The notes under the pieces: generated by a model
What the model saw: only the letters and a program-made list of their open reading frames with translations
The model's database searches: none
Told to the model about the DNA's origin: nothing
Made by a program: the position numbers and the translations under genes
In this document: piece by piece, positions 18,256 through 33,916 of the stretch
Position numbering within the stretch: the stretch's first letter is position 1
Layout of the letters: every line of letters starts with the position of its first letter
Virus record (IMG/VR): IMGVR_UViG_3300042935_001404
Source: a virus
Taxonomy: Duplodnaviria > Caudoviricetes
Strand: one strand, 5' to 3'
DNA: 64,000 nt

Positions 18256-18329
18256 TGGAGCGGAGTGAGAGAATCGAACTCTCGACCGAAGATTGGAAAT
18301 CTGCTGTTTTGCCATTAAACTAACCCCGC
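18256..18329 (-). tRNA. tRNA-Gly(TCC)
   Basis: Cloverleaf, loop TT-TCC-AA, CCA encoded. Confidence 0.95.
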
Positions 18330-18338
18330 ATACTAACT

Positions 18339-18413
18339 TGGTACCTGGACACGGTTTCGAACCGCGGACCCTCTCCGTGTAAAGGAGACGCTCTACCCCT
18401 GAGCTATCCAGGC
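18339..18413 (-). tRNA. tRNA-Val(TAC)
   Basis: Cloverleaf, loop TT-TAC-AC, CCA encoded. Confidence 0.95.
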
Positions 18414-18426
18414 TTCTATTCTACTT

Positions 18427-18500
18427 TGGTCTCGGTAGCAGGAATCGAACCTACGCTCGAACGTCCCAAACGTTCAGTGATACCATTTCACCATACCGAG
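18427..18500 (-). tRNA. tRNA-Pro(TGG)
   Basis: Cloverleaf, loop TT-TGG-GA, CCA encoded. Confidence 0.95.
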
Positions 18501-18506
18501 AAAAAC

Positions 18507-18659
18507 TTAACTGGGAATTATATGAGGCAAATACGGAACTGCTCTAGGACCGTGCAGTTGTTGCAACAACTTACGAGCCTCTTCTGCAGAGTCAGCACCC
18601 ACACGAGCCTTAAACTCTCGACCATCTGGTCCTCTAACTGTTGCTTCGTATAATTTCAT
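18507..18659 (-). CDS. 50-aa hypothetical protein MKLYEATVRGPDGREF... (below ORF-track cutoff)
   Basis: ATG to TAA between tRNA-Thr and tRNA-Pro; stops 7 nt before the tRNA. Confidence 0.6.
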   Translation of the reverse strand: MKLYEATVRGPDGREFKARVGADSAEEARKLLQQLHGPRAVPYLPHIIPS

Positions 18660-18674
18660 TTTGTAACTTTAAAA

Positions 18675-18749
18675 TGGTGCCCAATGTCTGATTCGAACAG
18701 ACGACCTACCGCTTACAAGGCGGTTGCTCTACCCCTGAGCCAATCGGGC
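18675..18749 (-). tRNA. tRNA-Thr(TGT)
   Basis: Cloverleaf, loop CT-TGT-AA, CCA encoded. Confidence 0.95.
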
Positions 18750-18756
18750 GTGTTTC

Positions 18757-18764
18757 TATTTATA
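18757..18764 (-). promoter_or_regulatory. T4-type late promoter TATAAATA
   Basis: Exact octamer just upstream of tRNA-Thr. Confidence 0.55.
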
Positions 18765-18767
18765 GAC

Positions 18768-18853
18768 TGGTGCGAGTGGCCGGAATCGAACCGGCACGCC
18801 ATTACAGCGGCAGATTTTAAGTCTGCTGTGGCTACCGATTACACCACACTCGC
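18768..18853 (-). tRNA. tRNA-Leu(TAA)
   Basis: Class II cloverleaf, loop CT-TAA-AA. Confidence 0.95.
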
Positions 18854-18870
18854 ATTTCTAACTTGTATAT

Positions 18871-18899
18871 ATTATACAATAAATCGAGTTAATTGTCAA
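18871..18899 (-). promoter_or_regulatory. Sigma70-type promoter TTGACA-N17-TATAAT
   Basis: Perfect consensus upstream of the five-tRNA cluster. Confidence 0.85.
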
Positions 18900-18909
18900 C
18901 CAGAAGAGA

Positions 18910-19416
18910 TTAACTGTTTAGGACTTTGGCAACCGAATTCATCACTGCGGCAATACGTCCAATATCACGAAGCTGTTCTACTGTGTAGCCTTCTTGCTTG
19001 AGTGTTTCGTAATGTGCCTTAACACAGAAGTGGCACCGGCCAACAATACTTGCGGCCAAACTAAATGCTTCAAAGTTTGATTTGGTAGTTCCACCATGTG
19101 ATGCAATAGCGTTCATGCGTAACTGTGCTGGCAGTCCTTTTAGAGCAGGATCATCAGCCATTTCAATGTAAGGATACCACACATTGTTCTGTGCCATGAT
19201 GCTGGCAGCAGTCATTGCTGACTCTGCGTGTACCGGAGCATCTGCTAAAATTACTGATAGGATCTTTCCGTTACCAGTTGCGGCCAATGCGGCCACGGCA
19301 CAACCCATAGCCACATCTGCATCTAATGTACTACGCAAAAGTACTGCATCAAGATTTAACTTGGTGTCCTTTGCGTAGTCTGGCAATGCACCTTTGACGG
19401 CGTCGATGAAACTCAT
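18910..19416 (-). CDS. ahpD: Alkyl hydroperoxide reductase AhpD
   Basis: LPDYAKDTKLNL, MAQNNVWY, GRCHFCVKAH (CxxC-H). Confidence 0.93.
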   Translation of the reverse strand: MSFIDAVKGALPDYAKDTKLNLDAVLLRSTLDADVAMGCAVAALAATGNGKILSVILADAPVHAESAMTAASIMAQNNVWYPYIEMADDPALKGLPAQLRMNAIASHGGTTKSNFEAFSLAASIVGRCHFCVKAHYETLKQEGYTVEQLRDIGRIAAVMNSVAKVLNS

Positions 19417-20105
19417 TATTTTCTATCTCCAAACAGTTGTAACAGATTGATAAACAAGTTGATAAAGTCCATGTACAAAGTCAATGCTCCGCGAATTTCT
19501 GCCGAGTCACTGGTTTCTACTGACAGTTCTTCACGAATCTTCTGTGTGTCGTAAGCAGTTAATCCCAGAAAGATAATGATAGCCAGTGCGGAGATCACCA
19601 TCTGCATCACGGTGCTGCCAATAAAGATGTTAACAATACTGGCAATCACGATGGCAATTAAGCCAACAAACATGAACTTGCCCATGCTGTCTAGACTTTG
19701 TTTGGTAAAGTAGCCATAGCCACTCATTACTGCAAACAAGATGCCTGCACCCATAAATGCTGACACAATACTACCCATAGTGAACACAGCAAAGATCATG
19801 GAAAAACTCAAGCCCATTAAGGCCGCAAATCCATGCAAGCATAACTGTGCTACGCCTTTGCTGGGATTATTACCTAGCACATAGCTGACACCAAAGATGG
19901 CCGCAAGTGGTGAAAAGATCACAATCCATTTTATCCAACCTGTAAAAAAGAATGCCAGTAACTCTGGACTAGATCCCACAAAGTAACTCACAAACATTGA
20001 TACAATCACAGCAAGACTCATGTGTCCATACACACGGCCCATTGCTGAATTAATTTCGCTGGCAGAACGATATGCAATTCCACCTGTATAACTTGTTCCA
20101 AACAT
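19416..20105 (-). CDS. Bax inhibitor-1/YccA family membrane protein
   Basis: Seven hydrophobic helices; AYDTQKI and GALTLYMDFINLF. Confidence 0.92.
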   Translation of the reverse strand: MFGTSYTGGIAYRSASEINSAMGRVYGHMSLAVIVSMFVSYFVGSSPELLAFFFTGWIKWIVIFSPLAAIFGVSYVLGNNPSKGVAQLCLHGFAALMGLSFSMIFAVFTMGSIVSAFMGAGILFAVMSGYGYFTKQSLDSMGKFMFVGLIAIVIASIVNIFIGSTVMQMVISALAIIIFLGLTAYDTQKIREELSVETSDSAEIRGALTLYMDFINLFINLLQLFGDRK

Positions 20106-20115
20106 GATTTTCTCC

Positions 20116-20739
20116 TTAAAATTTACCTGATGCCAATACGATTTGACAAATATGTTCTAATCGTTCAATGTGTTCAAATGCCCGCCACGGGCTTGTATCA
20201 ATGGCCACAACTCCGTGACCTTTGATGCCTACGATGTCAAAACCAATTGTGCCATCTTTTCTTAGCCAGAGATTTTCATGACAACGGTCTGCAAGCTCTT
20301 GACTGATAGGAGGTACATCTCCTACGTTCTTGGCCACTCGAGTATATCTACTTAGTTCTGGAAAGTCATCAACTATAGTGCTCAAGTCAATGCCGGCGTG
20401 CATAGCAGCCACACAGTATGTAGGATGTAAATGAACCACTACTCTAACATCAGTGCTGTGCTGACCCATTGCTCGTTGTAGGCCAAAATGTAGAGGAATT
20501 TCTCCGCTGGGCTTGAGATTGGCACTGATATCAGAGTAAGGCTCTTCTTTCCATGCCAAACTGCTTACAATCTTGATCTTCTTGAACTGGTCAGGTTGCA
20601 TGGTCTGCTTACGAACGCCACTGGGTGTGATATAAAAGTGATCACGGTCGTGATGACGAATGCTCACATTGCCATCACGACTGGTAATCCAGTTGCGTCT
20701 ATATGCTTCAACCAGTGTGTCGCATATAGTTTCTAACAT
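20116..20739 (-). CDS. Class II aldolase/adducin family protein (FucA/MtnB-like)
   Basis: DGNVS, ITPSG, KPSGEIPLH, VVHLHP, GHG. Confidence 0.88.
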   Translation of the reverse strand: MLETICDTLVEAYRRNWITSRDGNVSIRHHDRDHFYITPSGVRKQTMQPDQFKKIKIVSSLAWKEEPYSDISANLKPSGEIPLHFGLQRAMGQHSTDVRVVVHLHPTYCVAAMHAGIDLSTIVDDFPELSRYTRVAKNVGDVPPISQELADRCHENLWLRKDGTIGFDIVGIKGHGVVAIDTSPWRAFEHIERLEHICQIVLASGKF

Positions 20740-21278
20740 TACAGTGTCTCGCCACCAACTGTACGGTTACAAGCACAAAGCTCGCCAGTTTGTAGTGCAT
20801 CCAATACACGAAGTGTTTCTTCTGGGCTACGACCAACGTTCAAGTTGTTGACAGTAACGTGTTGGATAACGTTCTCTGGGTCAACAATGAATGTGGCACG
20901 AAGTGCGGCGCCTGCTGGAGCATAGAACACGCCCAACTGTTCAATCAAACTCAACTCACCACGCTGTGTGTCAGCATACTGGTGATGGGTGATCTTCTTT
21001 AGATCTGCGTGTGCTGTTTGCCATGCTACTTTGCAGAACTCATTGTCTGTGCTACCAGTGAGCAGGACTGCATCACGGTCAGCAAAGTCTTGTGTTAGTT
21101 TGTCGTAGGCTACGATTTCTGTAGGGCAAACGAATGTAAAGTCTTTTGGATAGTAAACGATTACTTTCCACTTGCCTTCAAAACTTGTTTCAGTGATGGT
21201 ATAGAAAGCGTCTTCTGGTTGTCCGGGCTTAACGCCTGTGACTGCAAATGGGGCTAATTTGTCGCCAACTGTTTTCAT
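20739..21278 (-). CDS. ahpC: Peroxiredoxin AhpC
   Basis: YYPKDFTFVCPTE, LRATFIVDP, GRSPEETLRVLDALQTGELC. Confidence 0.96.
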   Translation of the reverse strand: MKTVGDKLAPFAVTGVKPGQPEDAFYTITETSFEGKWKVIVYYPKDFTFVCPTEIVAYDKLTQDFADRDAVLLTGSTDNEFCKVAWQTAHADLKKITHHQYADTQRGELSLIEQLGVFYAPAGAALRATFIVDPENVIQHVTVNNLNVGRSPEETLRVLDALQTGELCACNRTVGGETL

Positions 21279-21382
21279 AATATCTCCTTTGTGTTGAATG
21301 AAAATGTTTGCAGAAGTTTTTCTGCATGTGTATATTGTACAGTTATTTACATGAGAAATCGACCATCTCTCATGGTTTCTAC

Positions 21383-21419
21383 TGAATATATTTCTATGGC
21401 AGCCATAGAAAAAATCAAT
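21383..21419 (-). promoter_or_regulatory. Candidate OxyR box upstream of ahpC
   Basis: ATTG-N7-CTAT-N7-ATAG-N7-TTCA versus consensus ATAG-N7-CTAT-N7-ATAG-N7-CTAT; TACAAT -10 at 21334-21339. Confidence 0.5.
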
Positions 21420-21424
21420 AAAGA

Positions 21425-21444
21425 AAACCCGCTAAAGCGGGTTT
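21425..21444 (-). terminator. Intrinsic terminator after the porin gene
   Basis: AAACCCGC-TTTA-GCGGGTTT followed by TCTTTT. Confidence 0.75.
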
Positions 21445-21464
21445 GAAATCTACGTTGTGTTAAA

Positions 21465-22490
21465 TCAGAAACTATGTGACAATCCAATGTAACTAGCTGT
21501 ACCTATGTTTGCAGTATCGGCTGCACCAGCGGCAGTTACAGCTTGCTTGGTATCTGATAAAAACGCTTCAAGTTTAGTACGCTTGCTGAAAGAATACACT
21601 GCGCGAACGCCTGTAACACCCTTCTTAGTGTTGGCAGCACCATTGGCACCAATGTTTACATTGTTAGACAACTTAGACAAAGACACATCTAACTTGGCAT
21701 TAACTGGAACTTTAATGCCGTACTCAGTTGACTTATGAGCTGCCATAGAAGTCAAATTGTCTTTTTGATTCATTTGGTTAACTGCAACTTCTGCAAATCC
21801 AAAATTGTAAGCGGCGTTGATAGTTTGCAACTTTTCAGCATTGAGACCAGTGATATTAGCAACTTGAGCTTTTAATCCTCCTGCTGAATAGTTAACACCA
21901 ATGACGTTCACATCATTCATCAACGTTGCTGTGGTTGTAGTGGCAAAACCATTGCCAGGGACCACTACATATTTGTTATGTCTGCCCTTGGCGTTTAATA
22001 AAAATACCTCTGCACCAGCAATCTTAGGCGAAGTGTATTGCACTTGTGCAGAATTGCGACCATAATTCAAGCCAGAATGGGTACCTTTAGACCAGTCTTG
22101 CATATAATGGCCGGCACCGTTTGTGCTGACCAACTGAGTAGAGAAACGACCTAATTTAACATTGCCGAACTTGCTATCCACAAAAATATTAGACTGTTCC
22201 CACAATTGAGTGTTGGCGTCACCAGTTGATGAATTAGCATATGACCCTTGTGCACCAGTTTCGGAACTAAAACGATTTTGTAAAAAAATACCAACTTTGG
22301 TACCACCGCCTAAGTCTTCAGCGGCACTAAAGTTTAAATAATTACGGTCACCTTTGGCAGCGCCAACGGTAGTAACTCCGGCAGCAGACCTTGCTACACC
22401 ATATTGAACCTGACCAGAAATTGTCACGGTTGATTGTGCAAGGACAGCAGTAGATACAGTCAATGCTAAGATTGCGAAGATTTTCTTCAT
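21465..22490 (-). CDS. Gram-negative general porin (Burkholderiales type)
   Basis: Signal peptide MKKIFAILALTVSTAVLA, VTISG, AAEDLGGG, YSFSKRT, C-terminal IGLSHSF. Confidence 0.9.
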   Translation of the reverse strand: MKKIFAILALTVSTAVLAQSTVTISGQVQYGVARSAAGVTTVGAAKGDRNYLNFSAAEDLGGGTKVGIFLQNRFSSETGAQGSYANSSTGDANTQLWEQSNIFVDSKFGNVKLGRFSTQLVSTNGAGHYMQDWSKGTHSGLNYGRNSAQVQYTSPKIAGAEVFLLNAKGRHNKYVVVPGNGFATTTTATLMNDVNVIGVNYSAGGLKAQVANITGLNAEKLQTINAAYNFGFAEVAVNQMNQKDNLTSMAAHKSTEYGIKVPVNAKLDVSLSKLSNNVNIGANGAANTKKGVTGVRAVYSFSKRTKLEAFLSDTKQAVTAAGAADTANIGTASYIGLSHSF

Positions 22491-22623
22491 TAGTTTTTCC
22501 TTTAGATTAAATTAAAATCAACAGATTGTCGACTTTATCAACAGACTGTCGATATAATATTTAGTCACGCAACATGATCCCTGACTTTTTGTCAACGAAA
22601 TCCATCAAAAATAGAGGTTCTGC

Positions 22624-23943
22624 TTATTGAGATCTTAACCACTGAATTAGTCGTCGATGTAAATTATAAAGTTTTTTACTAGATCCTGGATCTTGTTTTA
22701 ATATTTTTTTTCGTATCGCTCTTCGAAATATGCCACGTGGTTTTTTGACGAGTCGAAATGCATCTATAAAATTTGTTTTTAATTCTTCAATTACCTGTTG
22801 TTGAAATGCATCGCTAAAAAAATGTTTTTTGTTAAAATCCGCTATGCGTCTAATTTCTAGTAAAAATTGATCAAACTCCGGTGCGCCAAGAGAATTAATT
22901 TTATTCAGGCTGTTGATAATTTTTTCAAGTCTTAACAAACTATTTGTCTCTTGATCATAACTTTCGTCAATCCAAGGAGCAAATGTTCGAAATCCGTAAC
23001 TTCTTAGATATTCTAAACTATGCGGGCCTGCTGCCAACACAAATGGATGTCCGCAGGCAATTGGTCTCAGTATCTTTTCTGTCAAGTGAATTCTTGAGTC
23101 GTCAAATATAGTTTCCAAAACTACACTTATTGCAGTTGAATTAAAATCATCATGATTGTACTGTGCGCTTTCGTTGCTGTCACTGTGATTGTCTTCAAAC
23201 AGATCTAGTACAGTGCTGTCTTTGAGCGCAAAATTAATATTTTTAAATTTGTGGTCCCGGTAATGATACCCTTGATCGCCTTCGGACCGTCTTGATATAC
23301 TGATTTTACTTTGTTCATGCAATCCATGTTTGACCAACAACTCTATAAACTTTAATCTGTATTCTCTAGTGTTGCCCCAGGCACGATTGTATATTAGGAA
23401 TTTTTTACAAACTTGAGATTGCGTTGTTAGCCGAGTATCTATCTCGGCAAATCTATACCAGTCACGAGCAATAATTGCATGGCACCAATAATAAACTGGT
23501 AAAAAATTATTTTGAGAATACTGTTCTAAGTCAACAGAATTTTTTTCAGAATGCAGTAAAATTGCCTGTTCATAAAGAGATCCACACAACAATGGTATTG
23601 ACAATAAATTTTTATCAACCGCCGCTTGACTACTTATTTTGGCCACAGTGGGTTCGTTTAATGCAATGTGTAATGACACAGGATCAATATTTGTATAAAA
23701 ATTATAATGCAATGGCTCTTGGTCGTGTGCAACAACTGGAATGTTAATAAAATATGTTAGGCCGTCAACACCATTGGCGCCAAGAGCAGTCAATGCATCA
23801 AGATCAGTTAATGTATCAATATCAGTCAATGGTCTGAGGTCAGAAATATCTTTACTACCGTGAGGATAAAATCTGTAAAATGCTGTCGGAACAGGTATAA
23901 TCGATTGCACCCAGTGGTACAAATTGTCTAAGGGAATGTTCAT
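22624..23943 (-). CDS. Putative GT-B/GT10-like glycan-modifying protein, paralog 3
   Basis: ISVVLETIF...HLTEKILRPIACGHPFV...LRSYGFRTF...DESYD. Confidence 0.55.
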   Translation of the reverse strand: MNIPLDNLYHWVQSIIPVPTAFYRFYPHGSKDISDLRPLTDIDTLTDLDALTALGANGVDGLTYFINIPVVAHDQEPLHYNFYTNIDPVSLHIALNEPTVAKISSQAAVDKNLLSIPLLCGSLYEQAILLHSEKNSVDLEQYSQNNFLPVYYWCHAIIARDWYRFAEIDTRLTTQSQVCKKFLIYNRAWGNTREYRLKFIELLVKHGLHEQSKISISRRSEGDQGYHYRDHKFKNINFALKDSTVLDLFEDNHSDSNESAQYNHDDFNSTAISVVLETIFDDSRIHLTEKILRPIACGHPFVLAAGPHSLEYLRSYGFRTFAPWIDESYDQETNSLLRLEKIINSLNKINSLGAPEFDQFLLEIRRIADFNKKHFFSDAFQQQVIEELKTNFIDAFRLVKKPRGIFRRAIRKKILKQDPGSSKKLYNLHRRLIQWLRSQ

Positions 23944-24370: not shown

Positions 24371-24376
24371 ATAAAT

Positions 24377-27531: not shown

Positions 27532-27537
27532 ATACTC

Positions 27538-28014: not shown

Positions 28015-28018
28015 GTGT

Positions 28019-28093
28019 TGGTCTCGCTTGCAAGAATCGAACTCACATTCAAGAGGTAGAAGCTCTTTGTATTATCCATTATACTAAAGCGAG
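28019..28093 (-). tRNA. tRNA-Arg(TCT)
   Basis: Loop CT-TCT-AC, CCA encoded. Confidence 0.93.
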
Positions 28094-28095
28094 AA

Positions 28096-28173
28096 TGGCA
28101 GAGGGTACTGGATTCGAACCAGTGATCATGGAGTCAAAGTCCAATGCTTTAGGCCAAACTAAGCTAACCCCCA
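28096..28173 (-). tRNA. tRNA-Gln(TTG)
   Basis: Loop CT-TTG-AC, G73; U1.U72 and G3.U70 in the acceptor stem. Confidence 0.9.
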
Positions 28174-28184
28174 GTAATAATTGT

Positions 28185-28258
28185 TGGAGCGGGATAGGAG
28201 AATCGAACTCCTGACTAAACCTTGGCAAGGTTTCGTTTGACCATTAAACTAATCCCGC
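28185..28258 (-). tRNA. tRNA-Gly(GCC)
   Basis: Loop TT-GCC-AA, U73. Confidence 0.95.
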
Positions 28259-28261
28259 ATG

Positions 28262-28336
28262 TGGTGGTGATGAGTAGAGTCGAACTACCACCGGACTCCG
28301 TATGAAGGAGGCGCACTACCGTTATGCTACATCACC
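28262..28336 (-). tRNA. tRNA(CAT), elongator Met or lysidine-type Ile2
   Basis: Fully paired acceptor stem, loop TT-CAT-AC; identity cannot be resolved by eye. Confidence 0.88.
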
Positions 28337-29073: not shown

Positions 29074-29101
29074 AATTTTATTTATTAACTGGTTTTACAC
29101 A

Positions 29102-29194
29102 CCATATAAAAGCACACTATATGCGCCCTGGTTGTTAAGCGCCACTAACAGCCTGCAACCACGCAGGGTAGCCGTGTAATGTGCTTTTATATGG
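29102..29194 (-). ncRNA. Candidate structured ncRNA immediately 3' of tRNA-Lys
   Basis: 15-bp closing stem CCATATAAAAGCACA/TGTGCTTTTATATGG enclosing two internal hairpins. Confidence 0.45.
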
Positions 29195-29265
29195 TAGGGG
29201 TGCAGGGGAACGATCCCTGTTTTACGGATTAAAAGTCCGTTACTTCACCTTAAAGTTTCACCCCC
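29192..29265 (-). tRNA. tRNA-Lys(TTT)
   Basis: Loop CT-TTT-AA; atypical T-loop ATCGTTC; G1.U72. Confidence 0.9.
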
Positions 29266-29388
29266 TAATGGGCTTTGTTTTTGTGCTCGACGCAGAGCCT
29301 TGTTGCTCTTACGATGCGAACCTGCTTTGCGGAACAGTGCAAGACGAACGAAGCAGTTACGTTCGCGCACGATCGATTTACGTTTCAT
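29245..29388 (-). CDS. 47-aa basic peptide reading into tRNA-Lys (possibly ArfA-like)
   Basis: AAAGGA SD; MKRKSIVRERNCFVRLALFRKAGSHRKSNKALRRAQKQSPL|GGETLR*; stop codon lies in the tRNA D-loop. Confidence 0.7.
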   Translation of the reverse strand: MKRKSIVRERNCFVRLALFRKAGSHRKSNKALRRAQKQSPLGGETLR

Positions 29389-29407: not shown

Positions 29408-29483
29408 TGGTGGAGGATAACGGATTCGAACCGTTTGCTCCTGGTTGCAAACCAGGTGTGTTAGCCAAGTATACCAATCCCCC
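29408..29483 (-). tRNA. tRNA-Ala(TGC)
   Basis: G3.U70, A73, loop TT-TGC-AA. Confidence 0.96.
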
Positions 29484-29484
29484 A

Positions 29485-29724
29485 ATATGCTCTGCATCCC
29501 CCGGCGGTAATTATAGAGTATCAACATAGATTAATCCGGAATCTAACTCAACTAAGGTTAGCGATTCTATGCATCACACACTCCTTCCACCCGCTTCCCG
29601 ACAGGGACCGTTATCGCATTGCTAGCGGCCTTTTGGTAAGAAGACTACCACCCTTGAGTAACGAACTCACTTCTCTCGTACGGGTCATACTAGCCAGGCG
29701 TTACCCCGACGGGTTCTTCTCTCA
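29485..29724 (-). ncRNA. Candidate ~240-nt structured ncRNA directly upstream of tRNA-Ala
   Basis: GC-rich, no credible ORF, consecutive hairpins with GUAA and GCAA tetraloops and a T-loop-like TTCGTTA. Confidence 0.55.
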
Positions 29725-29768: not shown

Positions 29769-30530
29769 TTACAACCTAGATTCTATCATAGGAGCAATAA
29801 AATCAGCAATCTGAATATGAGCTTTTTCTGTAGGATGATGTGATATTGGATTTAACAATCCAATATCAACTAAAAACGCTACTCTATTGGAGTCTACAAC
29901 CCAATTTGAATAATGATAGTTGTTATCAACATTTTTCATGTTATTTCTCAAACACAATTGTGACATTAAATCTCTATCAGGTATATCAATCATATTGTCG
30001 ATGGGTTGATGATACAGATGATGATTAAATGTATCAACCCATATATTTTTGACCCCCATTGACTTATAAAAAACATTCCAAAAATTCATCTCAACTTCTA
30101 ATTGTTGTACTTCGTGATTATGATCATATGAATGTTTAACCATAAACTCGCTAAATTTATTTGGCATATTATATTTGCAATGTAACACAGACATTGTGTC
30201 TAAATCAAAAAATACATTTCGAGCAGTTGATGTGATTGCATGCAATACAATAATTTTATCATATGTTTCTTGATCACATTTGAAATCAATTTTACTAAAA
30301 TATCTTTTAGCATAATTAAATTGAGCTTGATTACTGCTTCCACCATGTGCAAAATTTTTGTTATCTAATGCAAAATTTTTAGACAAAACACCACGAAATG
30401 ATTTTGTCCCACAAATGTCTGAATTCCATGCAATAGAATTATACACAGCAGTGGATTGCTCAATTTGATATCCTACACCAACTCCATAGGTCCAACTGCA
30501 CCCAAACGTGATAAGCAAATTTTTATTCAT
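29769..30530 (-). CDS. SGNH/GDSL-like protein
   Basis: ITFGCSWTYG, GGSSN, HHPTEKAH. Confidence 0.65.
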   Translation of the reverse strand: MNKNLLITFGCSWTYGVGVGYQIEQSTAVYNSIAWNSDICGTKSFRGVLSKNFALDNKNFAHGGSSNQAQFNYAKRYFSKIDFKCDQETYDKIIVLHAITSTARNVFFDLDTMSVLHCKYNMPNKFSEFMVKHSYDHNHEVQQLEVEMNFWNVFYKSMGVKNIWVDTFNHHLYHQPIDNMIDIPDRDLMSQLCLRNNMKNVDNNYHYSNWVVDSNRVAFLVDIGLLNPISHHPTEKAHIQIADFIAPMIESRL

Positions 30531-31179
30531 GTTTTTGTAGTACCATTCTTAATGTTCCCTCGGCCATGTTAGATCCAATATGAGTATCATCAAGTTCAAA
30601 ACACAAAATCTCATCTCTAAAAATTTCAATTTGATCACGTATGTATGTTGATGCAGTATTTTTTATTTCTGTAGTCTCTGCACCTATCATATGACACACA
30701 TTCATCATGATAAAAATTTTACCACCTGGTTTGGTCATTTGTAAGACTTGATTGATCCTGTTAGAAAATTGCGACAATGGAATAAAATGCAAAGCATTCA
30801 TACTCATGATATTTTCAAATTTTTCTGTATTTTCCTTGACAAACGCATCATCTACAAACCCAACCTGGTCAGCATAAAAATTTAATGATTTTGAATCAAT
30901 GCCGATTATGTTTGGAATATATTTTTTATATATGTTCCACCCACATCCAATATCATAAATTTTAGAGCTTGATGCTAATTGTAAAATATAGTAAAAAGGA
31001 ACCATTGAAAATATTCTTTTGCCACGATATTCGCGCGGCGTCATTCCCATAAAGCCCAAAGTTGGTATATTAGTTTCCCAAGTCAACAAATCAAAATCTT
31101 GTTTTACGTTACGTGCCAAATCAGTTGATTCAAAGCTTTTTCGAAAATTTTCTAAGTTATATGCGTTTAAATTGTTCAT
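30523..31179 (-). CDS. Class I SAM-dependent methyltransferase-like protein
   Basis: IYDIGCG, IIGID, MNALHF, KPGGKI. Confidence 0.7.
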   Translation of the reverse strand: MNNLNAYNLENFRKSFESTDLARNVKQDFDLLTWETNIPTLGFMGMTPREYRGKRIFSMVPFYYILQLASSSKIYDIGCGWNIYKKYIPNIIGIDSKSLNFYADQVGFVDDAFVKENTEKFENIMSMNALHFIPLSQFSNRINQVLQMTKPGGKIFIMMNVCHMIGAETTEIKNTASTYIRDQIEIFRDEILCFELDDTHIGSNMAEGTLRMVLQKHE

Positions 31180-31198: not shown

Positions 31199-31283
31199 TG
31201 GTGGAGATGATAGGGATCGAACCTATTGTGACCGAAGTCGGAAGATTTACAGTCTCCTGCCATACCATTACGGCGGCATCTCC
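31199..31283 (-). tRNA. tRNA-Tyr(GTA)
   Basis: Class II cloverleaf, loop CT-GTA-AA. Confidence 0.95.
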
Positions 31284-31288
31284 ATGTC

Positions 31289-31363
31289 TGGTACTCGATA
31301 GCGGAGTCGAACCGCTCTTGCCTGGATGAAAACCAGATGTCCTAACCGATAGACGAATCGAGC
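31289..31363 (-). tRNA. tRNA-Glu(TTC)
   Basis: Loop TT-TTC-AT. Confidence 0.95.
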
Positions 31364-31371
31364 AAAAAGAG

Positions 31372-31436
31372 GAGAGCCACGGTTGCAGGACCTAGTGTCT
31401 CGTTGCCGAGAGAAGTGTCCAGGCGATGTGGCTCTC
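31372..31436 (-). ncRNA. 65-nt rod-like hairpin between tRNA-Glu and tRNA-Asp
   Basis: GAGAGCCAC/GTGGCTCTC closing stem, GGAC/GTCC inner helix, TCTCG-GCAA-CGAGA apex. Confidence 0.45.
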
Positions 31437-31442
31437 AAAACT

Positions 31443-31517
31443 TGGCGGTCTGTGGGGGAATCGAACCCCCGTAAGTGGATAGACAATCCACAGTAATAAC
31501 CTCTATACGAACAGACC
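31443..31517 (-). tRNA. tRNA-Asp(GTC) with U37
   Basis: Stem GTGGA/TCCAC, loop TT-GTC-TA, G73. Confidence 0.92.
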
Positions 31518-31525: not shown

Positions 31526-31758
31526 CTATTTTAAAACATACTAAAGGAACCATTGTGCATCTATGTCTACCTATAGGACCGTCTCCTATAGACCTGCACG
31601 GTCATTACTGCCTACATGCTCCGCCGCTTTTCTGGACATTTCTGCCCGGTTTCATGGACCTAGCTTGAGCGTGGGCGGCCCCACAGTCCTCGCCTTAGAT
31701 CCCTAACGGTGTAGGTAACCTTTAATACGTTTTAAAATAGCAACCCTTACGGGTTACC
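31526..31758 (-). ncRNA. Candidate ~230-nt multibranched ncRNA
   Basis: CTATTTTAAAAC/GTTTTAAAATAG closing stem; several internal helices with GAAA and GUAA tetraloops; no credible ORF. Confidence 0.6.
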
Positions 31759-31784: not shown

Positions 31785-31975
31785 CTAGTTAATTTCCTAA
31801 CTAGTCTCTAGTATAACACAATGGCTATATCTAGTCAATTTGTTTTGCAAAGTCCCTACACTGTGTAGGGTTATTTGCAGATCCAGCTAATTTCTTAACT
31901 TGTTTCTATTGTAGCAAAATGGCGTTTAATTGTCAACTTAGTACTTTAGTATACCCTACGCACTGTAGGGTTATT
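31785..31975 (-). repeat. Two ~100-bp tandem promoter modules (palindrome + sigma70 promoter + leader hairpin)
   Basis: CCCTAC-N5-GTAGGG at 31854-31870 and 31954-31970; TTGACT-N17-TATACT (31810-31838) and TTGACA-N17-TACAAT (31908-31936). Confidence 0.8.
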
Positions 31976-31977
31976 AT

Positions 31978-32051
31978 TGGCGTACCTCCAAGGACTCGAA
32001 CCTTGACTGACGGTTTTGGAGACCGCGGTGCTGCCATTACACCAGAGATAC
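31978..32051 (-). tRNA. tRNA-Trp(CCA)
   Basis: Loop CT-CCA-AA, G73. Confidence 0.95.
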
Positions 32052-32058
32052 ATTAAAT

Positions 32059-32132
32059 TGGTAGCCTGTCAAGGTAACGATCCTTGGTCGCTCGATTATC
32101 AGTCGAGTGCTCTACCTTTGAGCTAACGGGCT
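32059..32132 (-). tRNA. tRNA-Ile(GAT)
   Basis: Loop CT-GAT-AA; atypical T-loop ATCGTTA. Confidence 0.9.
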
Positions 32133-32137
32133 ATGAT

Positions 32138-32212
32138 TGGCGGGTCCTGCAGGAATCGAACCCACACCGCTTGGTTCGAAGCCAAGCATGATATCCATTT
32201 CACCAAGGACCC
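32138..32212 (-). tRNA. tRNA-Arg(TCG)
   Basis: Loop CT-TCG-AA. Confidence 0.93.
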
Positions 32213-32217
32213 TTAAC

Positions 32218-32307
32218 TGGCGGTGCGACTCGGATTCGAACCGAGAACCCGGATTACGCCGAGCGACAGATTAGCAATCTGCTCTAATACCATTATAGGA
32301 CCACACC
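32218..32307 (-). tRNA. tRNA-Ser(GCT)
   Basis: Class II cloverleaf, loop TT-GCT-AA, G73. Confidence 0.93.
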
Positions 32308-32313: not shown

Positions 32314-32405
32314 TGGCGGAAGACGGAGGAGTCGAACCCCATCCCTGTTAAGAGAACCTGGTTTTCAAGGCCAGTCGCAGGACCGGTCCCGCTGCATCAT
32401 CTTCC
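32314..32405 (-). tRNA. tRNA-Ser(TGA) with 8/4 acceptor/T-stem fold
   Basis: GGAAGATG pairs with CGTCTTCC (8 bp); T-stem GGGG/CCTC (4 bp); no U8; loop CT-TGA-AA. Confidence 0.88.
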
Positions 32406-32414
32406 TAAAATGTG

Positions 32415-33176
32415 TTAAAGATTTTTAAAAACTTTTTTTATAATTGCACTGCGATCCAGTTTGGAACTGGCACCCAGCACAATGACTGCGTACTGTTGTT
32501 TGTTGTGTTCTACCAGCATGGCCACACACCATCCAGCAAGATTAGTAAATCCAGTCTTGCTCACGTCCACACGGGTAAACTCTGCCAACAGTGGACGGGA
32601 TGTGTGAACCAGGTTCACAGAGCTGCCGCCTATTTTGTCAAGTTTTTTCAACAGCACAGTTGACTGCCCACTGGCTTCTTGTATAAACCAATAGTTGGCA
32701 GCAATCTGTACCATTTCTATTAGATCCCGTGCAGTGGACACATTGAACACACCCAGGCCTGACGGATCTACAAATTTAGTATTTCGAAGATTCCACATCC
32801 GGGCATGTCGATTCATTTCAGCTACAAAGGCAGATCGGCCTCCGGGGTAGTTCTGTGCAATGGTTTCGGCTGCTCCGTTGTCACTGCTGACCAGCATGGC
32901 CAGCAACAACTGTTCTCTGGTGTACCTGCCGGGCGGCAATCGACTGCCGGTGTTTTTTCTCAGCACCAACTGCTGTTGAAGATCTCTGTTGTGATCCAAT
33001 GCAACCATGGCAGTCATCAACTTGGTCACACTGGCCATTGATCTGATTTGATCACTATTTTGACTCAGTTCCGTGCGCTGTGCATTGATGTTGTAGACCA
33101 ACACTGTGGGCTCACGTGCGTGGGCCGTTGCATTGGATAAAACTGTACAAAAAAGTACTGCGGCAAATAATTTCAT
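32415..33176 (-). CDS. D-alanyl-D-alanine carboxy/endopeptidase (peptidase S11, PBP7-like)
   Basis: Signal peptide; ASVTK (SxxK), SDN (SxN), FVDPSGL, KTG. Confidence 0.92.
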   Translation of the reverse strand: MKLFAAVLFCTVLSNATAHAREPTVLVYNINAQRTELSQNSDQIRSMASVTKLMTAMVALDHNRDLQQQLVLRKNTGSRLPPGRYTREQLLLAMLVSSDNGAAETIAQNYPGGRSAFVAEMNRHARMWNLRNTKFVDPSGLGVFNVSTARDLIEMVQIAANYWFIQEASGQSTVLLKKLDKIGGSSVNLVHTSRPLLAEFTRVDVSKTGFTNLAGWCVAMLVEHNKQQYAVIVLGASSKLDRSAIIKKVFKNL

Positions 33177-33194
33177 ATCTTTATTTTGTAAAAT

Positions 33195-33269
33195 TGGAAC
33201 ACAGGACAGGACTCAAACCTGCATGATACGGATTTGCAATCCGTTGCGTAATCATTCCGCCACCTGTGC
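33195..33269 (-). tRNA. tRNA-Cys(GCA)
   Basis: Loop TT-GCA-AA, U73. Confidence 0.92.
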
Positions 33270-33280
33270 ATATACGTCGA

Positions 33281-33415
33281 ACACACTGTTTCCAATGTGT
33301 GTATTAAAGCACTCTAAAATACTTAGGCTGCCTGTTCTTAAAGAATGCTTTAATACGAACTAATTTTTCCTCCCACACAAGGGATTCCATCCTAGTCGCC
33401 GCCCGTTCGTGCTTG
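33281..33415 (-). ncRNA. Candidate three-domain structured leader/ncRNA upstream of tRNA-Cys
   Basis: ACGAAC/GTTCGT domain; 15-bp GTATTAAAGCATTCT/AGAGTGCTTTAATAC stem; ACACATTG-GAAA-CAGTGTGT hairpin. Confidence 0.45.
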
Positions 33416-33420
33416 TTTAT

Positions 33421-33450
33421 AGTGTAGCACAGGACCTCGTTTCCTGTCAA
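33421..33450 (-). promoter_or_regulatory. Sigma70-type promoter TTGACA-N18-TACACT with extended -10 TG
   Basis: Consensus match. Confidence 0.6.
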
Positions 33451-33461
33451 CACTTTAGGAT

Positions 33462-33623
33462 TTATGTCCAAAGTTGATTCTTGACTCGCATGCGAGTTTC
33501 GAGTTCCAACCTAGCACGTTCCAACTTTTCCCGAATCAACTTTTCACGTTGTTCCGGTGTCAGTGTGTGCTCTGTTGTGTACTTTACTTCACGCATTCGT
33601 TGTTTTAAATCTAATTTCTTCAT
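33462..33623 (-). CDS. 53-aa highly charged helical protein, first gene after the attenuator
   Basis: AAAGGA SD; MKKLDLKQRMREVKY...LETRMRVKNQLWT*. Confidence 0.7.
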   Translation of the reverse strand: MKKLDLKQRMREVKYTTEHTLTPEQREKLIREKLERARLELETRMRVKNQLWT

Positions 33624-33641
33624 TTTTCCTTTTCTAAAAAC

Positions 33642-33673
33642 AAAAAACCCTAGGGTTTTTAATCCTAGGGTCC
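33642..33673 (-). terminator. Attenuator terminator
   Basis: ACCCTAGG/CCTAGGGT 8-bp stem followed by a U-tract; its 5' arm can instead pair with 33711-33722. Confidence 0.8.
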
Positions 33674-33698
33674 TTGGAGTTTGTGTGTAAACTTTTAT

Positions 33699-33839
33699 TT
33701 ACGACATGGTCTCCTGGACCCTGGTACCCTCTGGTGTGCGATCATATGACATGCTATTGATTGCCGACCAAATAGAGGGCGCGAAGCCGGCCTGTTTGGC
33801 TAAACAATTTGATATAGAATGTAATACGTTTGTTTGCAT
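33699..33839 (-). CDS. 46-aa leader peptide containing all 20 amino acids
   Basis: MQTNVLHSISNCLAKQAGFAPSIWSAINSMSYDRTPEGTRVQETMS*, between a promoter and a terminator. Confidence 0.7.
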   Translation of the reverse strand: MQTNVLHSISNCLAKQAGFAPSIWSAINSMSYDRTPEGTRVQETMS

Positions 33840-33887
33840 TTTTGTTTCTTTAAATTTATATACACCTTTTTATTGGCGCATGTGTGT

Positions 33888-33916
33888 ATTGTATAGGTTT
33901 ATTTATACAAGGTCAA
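33888..33916 (-). promoter_or_regulatory. Dual promoter: TTGACC-N17-TACAAT with an embedded TATAAATA (33900-33907)
   Basis: Both consensus elements upstream of the leader peptide. Confidence 0.75.

What the first reader, a model, noticed from the sequence alone, without database searches (positions are those of the whole stretch)
18256..33916. Candidate undescribed phage system: sensing translation stress and rescuing translation
Seen in one co-oriented 15.6-kb block: an attenuator with an all-20-amino-acid leader at the 5' end, 25 tRNAs for 19 amino acids (several with atypical loops or folds), a two-piece tmRNA, a small ORF converted to a non-stop mRNA by tRNA processing, five unnamed structured RNAs and a YkuK RNase H-like gene. 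Known: host defences (PrrC, colicin D/E5-like and toxin-antitoxin anticodon nucleases) deplete tRNAs and stall ribosomes. Inference: the phage senses ribosome stalling, raises tRNA supply, recycles stalled ribosomes through tmRNA and holds an ArfA-like backup. Internal promoters at 33421, 31908, 31810 and 18871 mean the attenuator cannot be the only control.
Basis: inference. Interest (0 to 1): 0.88.

Follow-up and report, generated by a model that had tools for sequence, protein, structure and literature searches.

The report
Jumbo-phage tRNA island with translation-sensing leaders
This is the tRNA and tmRNA island of a roughly 350-kb freshwater phage; it is not one co-inherited system, but it holds a conserved switch whose short leader peptide uses nearly all 20 amino acids and always sits ahead of phage tRNA genes, plus short reading frames that run without a stop codon into the lysine tRNA.

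Summary
There are 24 ARAGORN tRNAs plus one Sec-like tRNA-Ser(UGA), covering 19 amino acids with no Phe. There is also a two-piece tmRNA, a YkuK gene, sigma-70-type promoters and at least five structured RNAs with no Rfam family. About 67% of the block is mosaic, host-like cargo.

The elements are not co-inherited. Among 10 near-complete related jumbo phages, tmRNA occurs in 10, YkuK in 7, the attenuator in 5-6 and the 41-aa ORF in 4. The tmRNA can lie about 110 kb from the tRNA island, and none of five genomes searched encodes SmpB.

Two parts gained strong comparative support:

- **Leader ORF and terminator.** It occurs once in each genome that has it and always sits inside a tRNA array. The antiterminator helix covaries (p=0.0007). 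Twenty-two leaders in 10 sequence clusters use 18-20 different amino acids in 37-49 codons (p=0.001).
- **ORFs reading into tRNA-Lys(UUU).** Two unrelated ORF types with a Shine-Dalgarno (SD) ribosome-binding site, a 41-aa basic peptide and an MDSDK mini-ORF, read into this tRNA without a stop codon. This holds in 14 of 22 unbiased contexts, against 3.7% for other tRNAs.

No homology to ArfA was found. The sensing-to-tRNA-supply idea is plausible but untested. The single integrated system is not supported. First-reader notes on this same genome had flagged the components; nothing was noted on other DNA.

The parts
33888..33916 (-). Promoter P1 (TTGACC-17-TACAAT) ahead of the leader
   Evidence: 10/12 consensus match; conserved in relatives
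33699..33839 (-). Leader ORF, 46 codons, all 20 amino acids
   Evidence: The ORF is kept in 10 sequence clusters while its sequence diverges, and uses 18-20 distinct residues.
33711..33722 (-). Antiterminator 5' strand (AGGGTCC AGGAG), inside the last leader codons
   Evidence: Pairs with 33664-33679 in the MFE fold. The GGGTCC core is invariant but read in different frames, and the flanking helix covaries (p=0.0007).
33636..33679 (-). Intrinsic terminator: 8-bp stem (33664-33671 with 33648-33655), 9-nt loop, T-run
   Evidence: Compensatory T-A to C-G and G-U intermediates occur in relatives.
33462..33623 (-). orf53, a small helical protein (motif LT.EQ...LI..KLERAR); first gene after the terminator
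   Evidence: Homologues follow the terminator in 10 of 21 loci. No family hit.
33421..33450 (-). Promoter P2 (TTGACA-18-TACACT), with the inverted repeat ACAGGA-N7-TCCTGT in its spacer
   Evidence: identical in all eight sequences aligned
33275..33414 (-). ncRNA-1, structured RNA between P2 and tRNA-Cys
   Evidence: 94-97% identical where flanking genes are 79-83%; compensatory changes in two helices; no Rfam hit
33195..33269 (-). tRNA-Cys(GCA)
32415..33176 (-). D-Ala-D-Ala carboxypeptidase (Peptidase_S11), cargo
   Evidence: Pfam E=9e-35
32318..32405 (-). Atypical tRNA-Ser(UGA): 8-bp acceptor stem, long D arm, 4-bp T stem
   Evidence: Rfam tRNA-Sec 35.2 bits, below the gathering score of 47. 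Missed by ARAGORN. 94-96% identical in five relative groups.
31978..32307 (-). tRNA-Ser(GCU), Arg(UCG), Ile(GAU), Trp(CCA)
31810..31936 (-). Tandem promoters 98-100 nt apart, each preceded by a CCCTAC hairpin
31535..31745 (-). ncRNA-2, multi-branched RNA of about 200 nt (aligned core 31542-31724)
   Evidence: 29 distinct homologues. Of 44 pairs, 22 show compensatory change. 97% of cells are paired, against 34-44% when partners are slid. No Rfam hit.
31364..31442 (-). tRNA-sized stem-loop RNA between tRNA-Asp and tRNA-Glu, ending in a U-run
   Evidence: Consensus fold with compensatory changes in the inner hairpin
31199..31517 (-). tRNA-Asp, Glu, Tyr (the span also contains the spacer RNA listed above)
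29769..31179 (-). Two cargo genes (an unknown 253-aa protein and a methyltransferase-like 218-aa protein), absent from all relatives
29484..29715 (-). ncRNA-5, GC-rich multi-branched RNA directly upstream of tRNA-Ala
   Evidence: Compensatory changes in several hairpins among five relatives. No Rfam hit. Highest word depth of the block in two of the four metatranscriptomes.
29408..29483 (-). tRNA-Ala(UGC)
29266..29388 (-). 41-codon basic ORF with an SD site and no stop before tRNA-Lys (in-frame TGA at 29245-29247, inside the tRNA)
29192..29265 (-). tRNA-Lys(UUU) with G1-U72 and atypical D and T arms
29100..29191 (-). Long hairpin RNA directly after tRNA-Lys
   Evidence: Consensus fold; compensatory changes in L060
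28339..29073 (-). Cargo gene (244 aa) with only a weak FkbM-methyltransferase hit
   Evidence: E=0.0044, below the Pfam cut-off
27939..28336 (-). tRNA-Met, Gly(GCC), Gln, Arg(UCU), His
27456..27839 (-). Promoter (27812-27839), 51-aa ORF (27538-27693) and tRNA-Asn
25349..27439 (-). Cargo: TctC-family receptor and an unknown 377-aa protein (shared only with relative A)
25253..25337 (-). tRNA-Leu(UAG)
24740..25240 (-). YkuK / RNase H-like (PF04308)
   Evidence: E=7e-18. Present in 7 of 10 near-complete relatives. It lies inside the tRNA island in the five records where that could be checked, and 4-12 kb from the tmRNA in most others.
24296..24466 (-). tRNA-Ser(ACU) with an A-C mismatch in the anticodon stem, and an initiator-like tRNA-Met (C1-A72)
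24005..24277 (-). Two-piece (permuted) tmRNA: acceptor piece, spacer, coding piece with a 27-residue tag ending ALAV, terminator hairpin
18910..23943 (-). Cargo: unknown 439-aa protein, porin, AhpC, class II aldolase, Bax-inhibitor-1/YccA-like protein, AhpD-like CMD
18256..18899 (-). Perfect consensus promoter (18871-18899), tRNA-Leu(UAA), Thr, a 50-aa ORF (18507-18659), tRNA-Pro, Val, Gly(UCC)

Best explanation
The block is the tRNA/tmRNA island of a freshwater jumbo phage of roughly 350 kb. The host is probably a betaproteobacterium. The island is modular, not a single operon or a co-inherited system.

Shown:
- Six sigma-70-type promoters head separate tRNA sub-operons.
- The tRNA genes are interleaved with strain-variable, host-like cargo genes.
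- A two-piece tmRNA is present. It must use host SmpB, because none of five related genomes searched (all at least 99% complete by CheckV) encodes SmpB.
- At least five conserved structured RNAs are present.

Inferred, module 1 (head of the island): a leader-peptide transcription attenuator.
- A ribosome that reaches the leader's stop codon covers the GGGTCC strand. The terminator then forms and transcription stops.
- A ribosome that is late or stalled at any codon leaves that strand free to pair with the 5' arm of the terminator. Transcription then reads on into orf53, ncRNA-1 and the tRNA genes.
- Because the leader uses 18-20 different amino acids, it would report general decoding capacity, not the supply of one amino acid.

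Inferred, module 2: a translated leader runs, without a stop codon, into tRNA-Lys(UUU). The leader is either a 41-aa basic peptide or a 7-10-codon MDSDK mini-ORF. RNase P cleavage at tRNA +1 would leave a non-stop message. The most likely role is to couple lysine-decoding capacity to the fate of the tRNA-Lys precursor. tRNA-Lys is a known target of anticodon nucleases.
For: **Identity as a phage tRNA island**
- The window encodes a family-B DNA polymerase and an HNH endonuclease.
- Relatives are IMG/VR contigs of 160-375 kb.
- The beta_tmRNA model passes its gathering score, and the cargo includes TctC and Porin_4.
- A distant homologue of the 41-aa ORF lies in Acidovorax phage ACP17.

**Modularity**
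- The cargo is mosaic among relatives.
- In 10 near-complete genomes: tmRNA 10/10, YkuK 7/10, 41-aa ORF 4/10, attenuator 5-6/10.

**Attenuator**
- It occurs once in each genome that has it, with no match to the reversed control pattern.
- The MFE fold contains the antiterminator (z=-5.5).
- A change in the terminator 5' arm (T to C) is compensated in both of its pairing partners in L165.
- The helix flanking the invariant core is more complementary within a sequence than across sequences (-4.43 vs -2.96 kcal/mol; permutation p=0.0007).
- GGGTCC is read as G-S in some lineages and R-V in others, so the constraint is on the RNA.
- The ORF is kept at 37-49 codons, with its stop 6-21 nt after the start of the GGGTC motif, in 10 sequence clusters at or below 50% identity.
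- The mean number of distinct amino acids is 19.3 against about 17 expected; 11 of 22 leaders have all 20. Fisher p=0.0012, taking the least significant member of each cluster.
- Where downstream sequence was available (19 of 21 loci), tRNA genes follow within about 0.2-1.2 kb, and in 11 loci a tRNA lies just upstream.

**Lys leader**
- In the 49 IMG/VR contigs found with the peptide (about 38 distinct peptides in the 48 loci analysed), the 41-aa ORF always abuts tRNA-Lys(UUU), with the stop 8-30 nt inside the tRNA, while the upstream neighbour varies.
- Codon-position entropy is 17.7/14.5/35.8. In the core there are 5128 synonymous against 745 nonsynonymous differences. The last three residues are hypervariable.
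- The MDSDK mini-ORF, with SD TAAGGAGAG, has the same layout ahead of four different tRNA-Lys sequence types.
- An SD-ATG ORF reads into the tRNA in 14 of 22 unbiased tRNA-Lys(UUU) contexts, against 32 of 863 for other tRNAs and 0 of 7 for Lys(CUU).

**Expression**
- Contigs from four metatranscriptomes give high word depth on the RNA genes and near zero on most of the cargo genes.
Against: - No experiment or read-level data show termination, read-through or RNase P cleavage here. The metatranscriptome data are assembled contigs that mix related strains and possibly DNA.
- The leader has no clear Shine-Dalgarno sequence.
- A strong, fully conserved promoter (P2) lies between the terminator and the first tRNA, so attenuated read-through can only add to constitutive transcription.
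- Only one fully compensated change supports the invariant antiterminator core.
- The amino-acid diversity statistic rests on lineages that are related, and on choosing the longest ATG ORF.
- Strong amino-acid conservation of the 41-aa peptide is not explained by a purely cis-acting leader.
- Eight of 22 tRNA-Lys(UUU) contexts have no such ORF.
Confidence: 0.68

Rival explanations
1. The attenuator senses stalling, the whole array answers with more tRNA, the tmRNA recycles ribosomes, and the 41-aa peptide is an ArfA-like backup released when trans-translation is saturated. All of this acts as one coordinated counter-defence unit.
For: - All parts lie co-oriented in one island in this genome and its nearest relatives.
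- The attenuator and the non-stop layout are conserved.
- Three related near-complete genomes carry a GGQ-domain (RF-1 family, ArfB/PrfH-like) gene. In at least two of them (G015, G016) it lies inside the tRNA island, so ribosome rescue is a recurring theme.
- Phage tRNAs are known to counter tRNA-cleaving defences (PMC10264068, PMC11555353, PMC11464382).
Against: - The elements have different distributions: 10/10, 7/10, 5-6/10 and 4/10. The tmRNA is about 110 kb from the island in G015 and G016.
- Five further promoters lie downstream of the attenuator.
- No match to ArfA in Pfam or NCBIfam, and no match to any solved structure in the PDB.
- The unrelated mini-ORF replaces the peptide in sister genomes.
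- No SmpB and no RtcB are encoded.
Confidence: 0.12
2. An ordinary tRNA island with no sensing. The 46-aa ORF is simply a small gene with its own terminator. The overlap between ORFs and tRNA-Lys is gene packing, and the products are made from unprocessed transcripts that end at the stop inside the tRNA.
For: - Large tRNA sets, and tmRNAs, in huge phages are well known (PMC7162821, PMC9004378).
- P2 alone could drive the first tRNAs.
- The leader lacks a Shine-Dalgarno sequence.
- The 41-aa peptide is under strong protein-level selection, like a normal gene.
- The homologue in phage ACP17 has no tRNA downstream.
Against: - The leader's sequence diverges freely, while its length, stop position, RNA motif and amino-acid diversity are kept.
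- The antiterminator covaries.
- The in-tRNA C-terminal extensions differ in frame and length (GGETLR, GVKL, GL, EV and others), and no variant has a stop before the tRNA despite hypervariable last codons.
- The layout is specific to tRNA-Lys(UUU).
Confidence: 0.2
3. The 41-aa peptide acts as a nascent-chain arrest peptide. Its conserved core (residues 11-33) sits in the ribosomal exit tunnel when the ribosome reaches the tRNA boundary, holding the ribosome on the precursor.
For: - The core is strongly conserved at the amino-acid level. It is followed by about 3-8 variable residues and then the tRNA boundary.
- The peptide is very basic.
- This rests on general knowledge of SecM/TnaC/MifM-type arrest peptides; it is an inference.
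Against: - The MDSDK mini-ORF is too short to act from inside the tunnel.
- No arrest motif is known here.
- Nothing was tested.
Confidence: 0.1

Closest known systems
Leader-peptide transcription attenuators of amino-acid operons (trpL, hisL, pheL, ilvL; own knowledge, and PMC3082878 for pheL)
   Same: A promoter-proximal short ORF, an intrinsic terminator, and a mutually exclusive antiterminator whose 5' strand is covered by a ribosome at the leader's stop codon.
   Different: - There is no run of one regulatory codon; instead 18-20 different amino acids occur in 37-49 codons.
- No 1:2 pairing was seen, so no translation would also mean read-through.
- The downstream genes are tRNAs and a structured RNA in a phage, not biosynthetic enzymes.
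- No Rfam family matches, and the paper search found nothing comparable.
arfA (E. coli) and brfA (B. subtilis), expressed from non-stop mRNAs (PMC3989581, PMC8012679)
   Same: A small basic ORF whose message would lose its stop codon through RNA processing, so that its product would be subject to trans-translation.
   Different: - Here the cut would be made by RNase P at a tRNA 5' end.
- No sequence homology.
- The ORF is always tied to tRNA-Lys(UUU).
- An unrelated mini-ORF shares the layout.
Phage-encoded two-piece tmRNA, e.g. OM43 phage Melnitz (PMC9004378)
   Same: A circularly permuted ssrA gene in an aquatic phage. That paper found 53 unique two-piece tmRNAs among 18,146 phage genomes, mostly aquatic.
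   Different: - The tag has 27 residues and ends in ALAV.
- The gene scores best with the betaproteobacterial model.
- No riboswitch was found in it.
tRNA arrays of huge/jumbo phages, and the T4 tRNA cluster with its two stable RNAs of unknown function (PMC7162821; T4 from own knowledge)
   Same: Many tRNAs in one region, translation-related genes nearby, and non-tRNA stable RNAs embedded in the array.
   Different: This island has a near-complete tRNA set, internal promoters, an attenuator and a translated leader on tRNA-Lys.
Phage tRNAs as counter-defence against anticodon nucleases (PMC10264068, PMC11555353, PMC11464382)
   Same: A phage copy of tRNA-Lys(UUU), a common nuclease target, and several tRNAs with unusual loops or arms.
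   Different: No nuclease or defence context was tested here. The possible sensing layer (translated leaders) is not part of those reports.
Non-canonical 8/4 serine tRNAs (allo-tRNA type; own knowledge, Mukai et al. 2017)
   Same: An 8-bp acceptor stem, a 4-bp T stem, a long variable arm and a serine-type anticodon.
   Different: The anticodon UGA matches the serine identity, so no recoding is implied. Membership was not tested against those sequences.

Membership tests
Permuted tmRNA (Rfam RF04321) | Covariance-model score at or above the gathering score | tested here: met
   129.9 bits against 47; beta_tmRNA 96.5 against 84
Permuted tmRNA (Rfam RF04321) | Acceptor stem formed by two pieces in permuted order, with G3:U70 | tested here: met
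   ARAGORN places the 3' tRNA domain upstream of the 5' domain. GGGGGAG pairs with CTCCTCC.
Permuted tmRNA (Rfam RF04321) | Tag reading frame that resumes at an Ala codon and is conserved | tested here: met
   The 27-residue tag is conserved, with V/I/L and T/S changes in relatives.
Permuted tmRNA (Rfam RF04321) | Partner protein SmpB available | tested here: not met
   No PF01668 in five related genomes that are at least 99% complete. Host SmpB would be needed.
Leader-peptide transcription attenuator | Short ORF between the promoter and an intrinsic terminator | tested here: met
Leader-peptide transcription attenuator | Antiterminator that excludes the terminator and overlaps the end of the ORF | tested here: met
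   MFE fold; compensatory and covarying pairs
Leader-peptide transcription attenuator | Cluster of codons for the one regulating amino acid | tested here: not met
   Leaders use 18-20 different residues and have no runs.
Leader-peptide transcription attenuator | Read-through responds to ribosome position | not testable with these tools
   Needs reporter, Term-seq or in vitro assays.
ArfA (Pfam PF03889) | Sequence homology to ArfA | tested here: not met
   No Pfam or NCBIfam family, and no PDB chain at all, at E up to 10, for the single peptide or for a 20-sequence profile
ArfA (Pfam PF03889) | Made from a message that lacks a stop codon | tested here: inconclusive
   There is no stop before tRNA +1 in any variant. 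The RNase P cut is inferred, not observed.
ArfA (Pfam PF03889) | Recruits RF2 to non-stop ribosomes | tested here: inconclusive
   The complex prediction with E. coli RF2 gave no verdict.
tRNA-Sec (Rfam RF01852) | Score at or above the gathering score, and anticodon UCA | tested here: not met
   35.2 bits against 47; the anticodon is UGA.
YkuK / RNaseH_like (Pfam PF04308) | Profile match above the curated cut-off over the full domain | tested here: met
   65.3 bits against 25; residues 8-150 on profile positions 5-143 of 145

The most novel reading that the evidence does not exclude
Jumbo phages carry two translation-coupled sensors on their tRNA genes.
- A single-copy attenuator has a leader peptide that samples nearly every amino acid. 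Slow decoding at any codon would then raise transcription of a phage tRNA operon.
- Lys-codon leaders fused without a stop codon to tRNA-Lys(UUU) would report loss of lysine decoding, for example after attack by an anticodon nuclease.

Together they would be the first leader-peptide controls found on tRNA genes.
Probability: 0.35. Interest if true: 0.9.

Novelty: new variant of a known kind. Interest (0 to 1): 0.8.

Why it matters
Why phages carry near-complete tRNA sets is an old question. Recent work points to escape from tRNA-cleaving defences.

Control of tRNA genes by a translated leader has, to my knowledge, not been described. No Rfam family matches these elements, and one keyword search of the held open-access library found nothing comparable.

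If the leader works as inferred, it would be a simple, portable sensor of overall decoding capacity. It would also make the question of when a phage turns on its own tRNAs directly testable with reporter fusions.

The ORF-into-tRNA-Lys layout offers a second testable link between RNase P processing, non-stop translation and the tRNA most often attacked by host nucleases.

The work also defines at least three new structured RNA families. One has strong covariation, and one shows high depth in lake metatranscriptomes.

Tried and rejected
- **Close phage relatives.** Megablast of the block against 50,697 GenBank phage records found only single-tRNA matches.
- **Own genome.** The window's assembly is not held.
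- **Host from the porin.** A scan of genome contigs found no relative.
- **Naming the small proteins.** Pfam, NCBIfam, PDB profile search and the protein atlas gave nothing usable for the 41-aa peptide, the leader, orf53, orf50, orf51, or the unknown 439-aa and 377-aa proteins.
- **Naming the RNAs.** Permissive Rfam scans of each ncRNA gave only chance-level hits.
- **Complex of the 41-aa peptide with E. coli RF2.** No verdict; this is neither support nor evidence against.
- **ArfB-like gene in the window.** tblastn with the GGQ protein from G016 found nothing.
- **tRNA repair.** No RtcB in five relatives.
- **Read-level RNA ends.** Only assembled metatranscriptome contigs were available, so no 5' or 3' ends could be read.
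- **Rejected: tRNA-Met 24296-24370 as part of the tmRNA.** It is a separate initiator-like tRNA.
- **Rejected: the gaps at 18501-18674 and 27532-27938 as ncRNAs.** They hold small protein genes.
- **Rejected: the 32318-32405 element as a tRNA-Sec.** Its anticodon is UGA.

Full report
**1. What is there**

On the minus strand between 18256 and 33916, ARAGORN finds 24 tRNA genes and a permuted tmRNA. Rfam confirms 23 of the tRNAs and the tmRNA: tmRNA_permuted scores 129.9 bits against a gathering score of 47, and beta_tmRNA scores 96.5 against 84.

The 24th tRNA, tRNA-Met at 24296-24370, is a separate gene. It has a C1-A72 mismatch, as initiator tRNAs do.

A 25th tRNA-like gene lies at 32318-32405. 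It scores 35.2 bits on the tRNA-Sec model, below the gathering score. It has an 8-bp acceptor stem, a long D arm, a 4-bp T stem and the anticodon UGA, so it is an atypical tRNA-Ser and not a tRNA-Sec. ARAGORN misses it.

Nineteen amino acids are covered. Phe is missing here, but relatives carry tRNA-Phe exactly between Ser(GCU) and Arg(UCG).

About 10.4 of the 15.7 kb is protein-coding cargo:
- AhpD-like CMD, a Bax-inhibitor-1/YccA-like protein, a class II aldolase, AhpC and a porin;
- a TctC receptor and a D-Ala-D-Ala carboxypeptidase;
- one methyltransferase-like gene, one gene with only a weak FkbM-methyltransferase hit, YkuK (PF04308, E=7e-18) and several unknowns.

Elsewhere the window encodes a family-B DNA polymerase and an HNH endonuclease.

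**2. Relatives**

No close relative exists among GenBank phages, and the window's own assembly is not held. IMG/VR holds many related contigs of 160-375 kb, ten of them at least 92% complete by CheckV.

The tRNAs and most intergenic stretches are 85-100% identical in the nearest relatives, while the cargo is mosaic:
- the porin and the two genes at 29769-31179 occur only in this window;
- TctC and the unknown 377-aa protein are shared with one relative only.

The beta-type tmRNA, TctC, Porin_4 and a distant homologue in Acidovorax phage ACP17 point to a betaproteobacterial host. This is an inference.

**3. Are the elements co-conserved?**

| Element | Present in 10 near-complete genomes |
|---|---|
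| Permuted tmRNA | 10 |
| YkuK | 7 |
| Leader/terminator | 6 by blastn, 5 by a strict structural pattern |
| 41-aa ORF | 4 |

- In G015 and G016 the tmRNA lies about 110 kb from the tRNA island. YkuK, the 41-aa ORF and a GGQ-domain gene lie within the island. G015 has terminal repeats, so its two ends are adjacent.
- None of five complete genomes searched encodes SmpB or RtcB.
- Six consensus promoters split the array.

The block is therefore a modular island and not one inherited unit.

**4. The attenuator**

The order of parts is: P1 (33916-33888), a 46-codon ORF (33839-33699), and 25 nt later an 8-bp hairpin with a T-run (33671-33636).

*Structure.* In the MFE fold the last codons of the ORF (AGGGTCC AGGAG, 33722-33711) pair with CTCC..GGACCCT, which is the 5' arm of the terminator (z=-5.5 against shuffles).

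*Divergent versions.* These were found by blastn in related genomes and by a degenerate structural pattern. The pattern matches once in each of the seven genomes that have it (of 15 searched), with no match to the reversed control.

Across 22 leaders in 10 clusters (50% identity or less between clusters):
- The peptide sequence diverges freely.
- An ATG ORF of 37-49 codons is always kept.
- Its stop lies 6-21 nt after the start of the GGGTC motif, and 23-25 nt before the terminator arm in the ten versions where this was measured.
- GGGTCC is invariant but is read in different frames (R-V in the window, G-S in others), so the constraint is on the RNA.

*Covariation.*
- In L165 a T-to-C change in the terminator 5' arm is matched by A-to-G in both the 3' arm and the antiterminator. 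Other lineages show G-U intermediates and never a mismatch.
- The helix next to the invariant core changes sequence between lineages (AGGAG/CTCC, TTAAA/TTTAA, AGTAGA/TCTACT, GGTAG/CTACC). It is more stable within a sequence than across sequences (-4.43 vs -2.96 kcal/mol; permutation p=0.0007).

*Context.* In 19 of the 21 loci examined, tRNA genes follow within about 0.2-1.2 kb; the other two loci end before any downstream sequence. In 11 loci a tRNA lies just upstream, usually tRNA-Met about 180 nt away. In about half, the small orf53 gene comes first after the terminator.

**5. Is 'all 20 amino acids' chance?**

For one 46-residue peptide it could be. P is about 0.04 from the composition of this phage's proteins, and 2.3% of real 43-residue segments have all 20.

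Across the family it is not chance:
- all 22 leaders have 18-20 distinct residues;
- 11 have all 20;
- the mean is 19.3 against about 17 expected;
- Fisher's combined p is 0.0012, using the least significant member of each of the 10 clusters.

Four other small ORFs in the island (41-53 aa) have 16-17 distinct residues (my own count from their translations).

The mechanism I infer is this. A ribosome that reaches the stop in time hides the antiterminator strand and transcription ends. Slow decoding of any codon, or no translation at all, lets the antiterminator form and transcription runs into orf53, ncRNA-1 and the tRNA genes.

Limits:
- the leader has no clear Shine-Dalgarno sequence;
- the fully conserved promoter P2 lies between the terminator and the first tRNA;
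- nothing was measured.

**6. ORFs that run into tRNA-Lys(UUU)**

The ORF at 29388-29266 has a good SD site and 41 codons up to tRNA-Lys +1. Its only in-frame stop is inside the tRNA.

*Distribution.*
- The peptide search found 49 IMG/VR contigs; the 48 loci analysed held about 38 distinct peptides. In all of them the same ORF abuts tRNA-Lys(UUU), and the stop is always 8-30 nt inside the tRNA. The upstream neighbour varies: Gln, Ala, Gly, Arg, Cys, Met or Lys(CUU).
- 112 protein clusters exist in public data, all unnamed. Their tails beyond about residue 40 are unrelated and look like translated RNA genes.

*It is a real coding sequence.*
- Third-position entropy is twice that of positions 1 and 2.
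- In the core there are 5128 synonymous against 745 nonsynonymous differences.
- The last three residues are hypervariable, yet no variant has a stop there.

*No link to ArfA.* No homology was found in Pfam, NCBIfam or PDB.

*The new observation.* Sister genomes that lack this ORF have, in the same place, an unrelated mini-ORF. It has the SD TAAGGAGAG, reads M-D-S-D-K followed by 2-5 more codons (a second Lys at codon 8 in all but the shortest variant), and also reads into tRNA-Lys with no stop. It occurs ahead of four different tRNA-Lys sequence types.

| tRNA context | SD-ATG ORF reads into the tRNA |
|---|---|
| tRNA-Lys(UUU), loci not fetched with the peptide | 14 of 22 |
| All other tRNAs | 32 of 863 (mostly spurious frames) |
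| tRNA-Lys(CUU) | 0 of 7 |

The shared feature is therefore translation into tRNA-Lys(UUU), not one particular protein. This lowers the ArfA-like reading and favours a cis-acting role. The strong conservation of the 41-aa peptide remains unexplained; it could be a trans-acting protein or an arrest peptide. tRNA-Lys is a known target of anticodon nucleases (PMC10264068, PMC11464382). The link to defence is an inference.

**7. Structured RNAs**

None matches Rfam, even in permissive scans.

| RNA | Coordinates | Evidence |
|---|---|---|
| ncRNA-2 | 31535-31745 | 29 distinct homologues in jumbo-phage contigs; 22 of 44 pairs have compensatory changes; 97% of cells paired against 34-44% when partners are slid |
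| ncRNA-1 | 33275-33414 | Follows P2; better conserved than its flanking genes; compensatory changes in two helices |
| ncRNA-5 | 29484-29715 | Several compensated hairpins; highest word depth of the block in two of the four metatranscriptomes |
| Shorter element | 31364-31442 | Compensatory changes |
| Shorter element | 29100-29191 | Compensatory changes |

In four metatranscriptomes the RNA genes have high depth and most of the cargo genes almost none. These are assembled contigs from mixed strains, so they show presence, not regulation.

**8. Comparison with what is known**

- Phage two-piece tmRNAs and large phage tRNA sets are already described (PMC9004378, PMC7162821).
- tRNAs as counter-defence are described (PMC10264068, PMC11555353, PMC11464382).
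- Leader-peptide attenuation and non-stop control of arfA and brfA are classical (PMC3082878, PMC3989581, PMC8012679).
- I found no description of an attenuator with a pan-amino-acid leader ahead of tRNA genes, or of leaders fused without a stop codon to tRNA-Lys. The latter rests on my own knowledge and the absence of any named family; no paper search was aimed at it.

**9. Verdict**

- a translation-sensing control on part of the tRNA supply is plausible and has comparative support;
- the single integrated sensing-and-rescue system with an ArfA-like backup is not supported.

Noticed in passing
L169:8260-8610 (G016); G015:C1:221026-221340; G021:C1:309673-309957: Three related jumbo phages encode a small GGQ-domain protein (RF-1 family, ArfB/PrfH-like, about 116-140 aa). 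In G015 and G016 it lies inside the tRNA island; in G021 it lies about 2 kb from the leader-like match. The window and its closest complete relative lack it.
   Followed up: partly
window 31741-31800 (-): Downstream of the tandem promoters lies CGTTCTTTAAAA, which resembles the rrn boxA antitermination element. It is flanked by hairpins and is identical in five relatives.
   Followed up: partly
window 33421-33450 (-): The spacer of promoter P2 holds a perfect inverted repeat, ACAGGA-N7-TCCTGT, identical in all eight sequences aligned. It could be an operator, possibly for orf53, the gene under attenuator control.
   Followed up: no
window about 27866-27930 (+): A tiny opposite-strand ORF (MRYFGDHESAVNWIKTLKDHY) is conserved at the amino-acid level, with synonymous changes in relatives C and D.
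   Followed up: no
window 32212-32218: tRNA-Phe(GAA) is present at this exact junction in relatives A, D and F but absent here and in B and C. This is a recent gain or loss of a single tRNA.
   Followed up: partly
window 19416-20105 (-): A Bax-inhibitor-1/YccA-like membrane protein is the only cargo gene found in all seven relative groups (79-91% nucleotide identity).
   Followed up: no
L173:2980-3131 (Acidovorax phage ACP17, KY979132): An unannotated homologue of the 41-aa ORF (62% identity) has no ATG start and no tRNA downstream, and overlaps the next gene. It is the only hit among cultured phages.
   Followed up: partly
L172:130-204 (G015): ARAGORN calls a tRNA with anticodon CUA (amber-reading, labelled Pyl) in a related 223-kb phage.
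   Followed up: no
window 29484-29715 (-): RNAs like ncRNA-5 reach word depths of 2745 and 923 in two lake metatranscriptomes, above the tmRNA bin. This points to a very abundant stable RNA of unknown function.
   Followed up: partly
window 24014-24031 (-): The stop codon of the tmRNA tag sits in the loop of a terminator-like hairpin followed by a T-run. The coding piece appears to end there, without the usual downstream pseudoknots.
   Followed up: no
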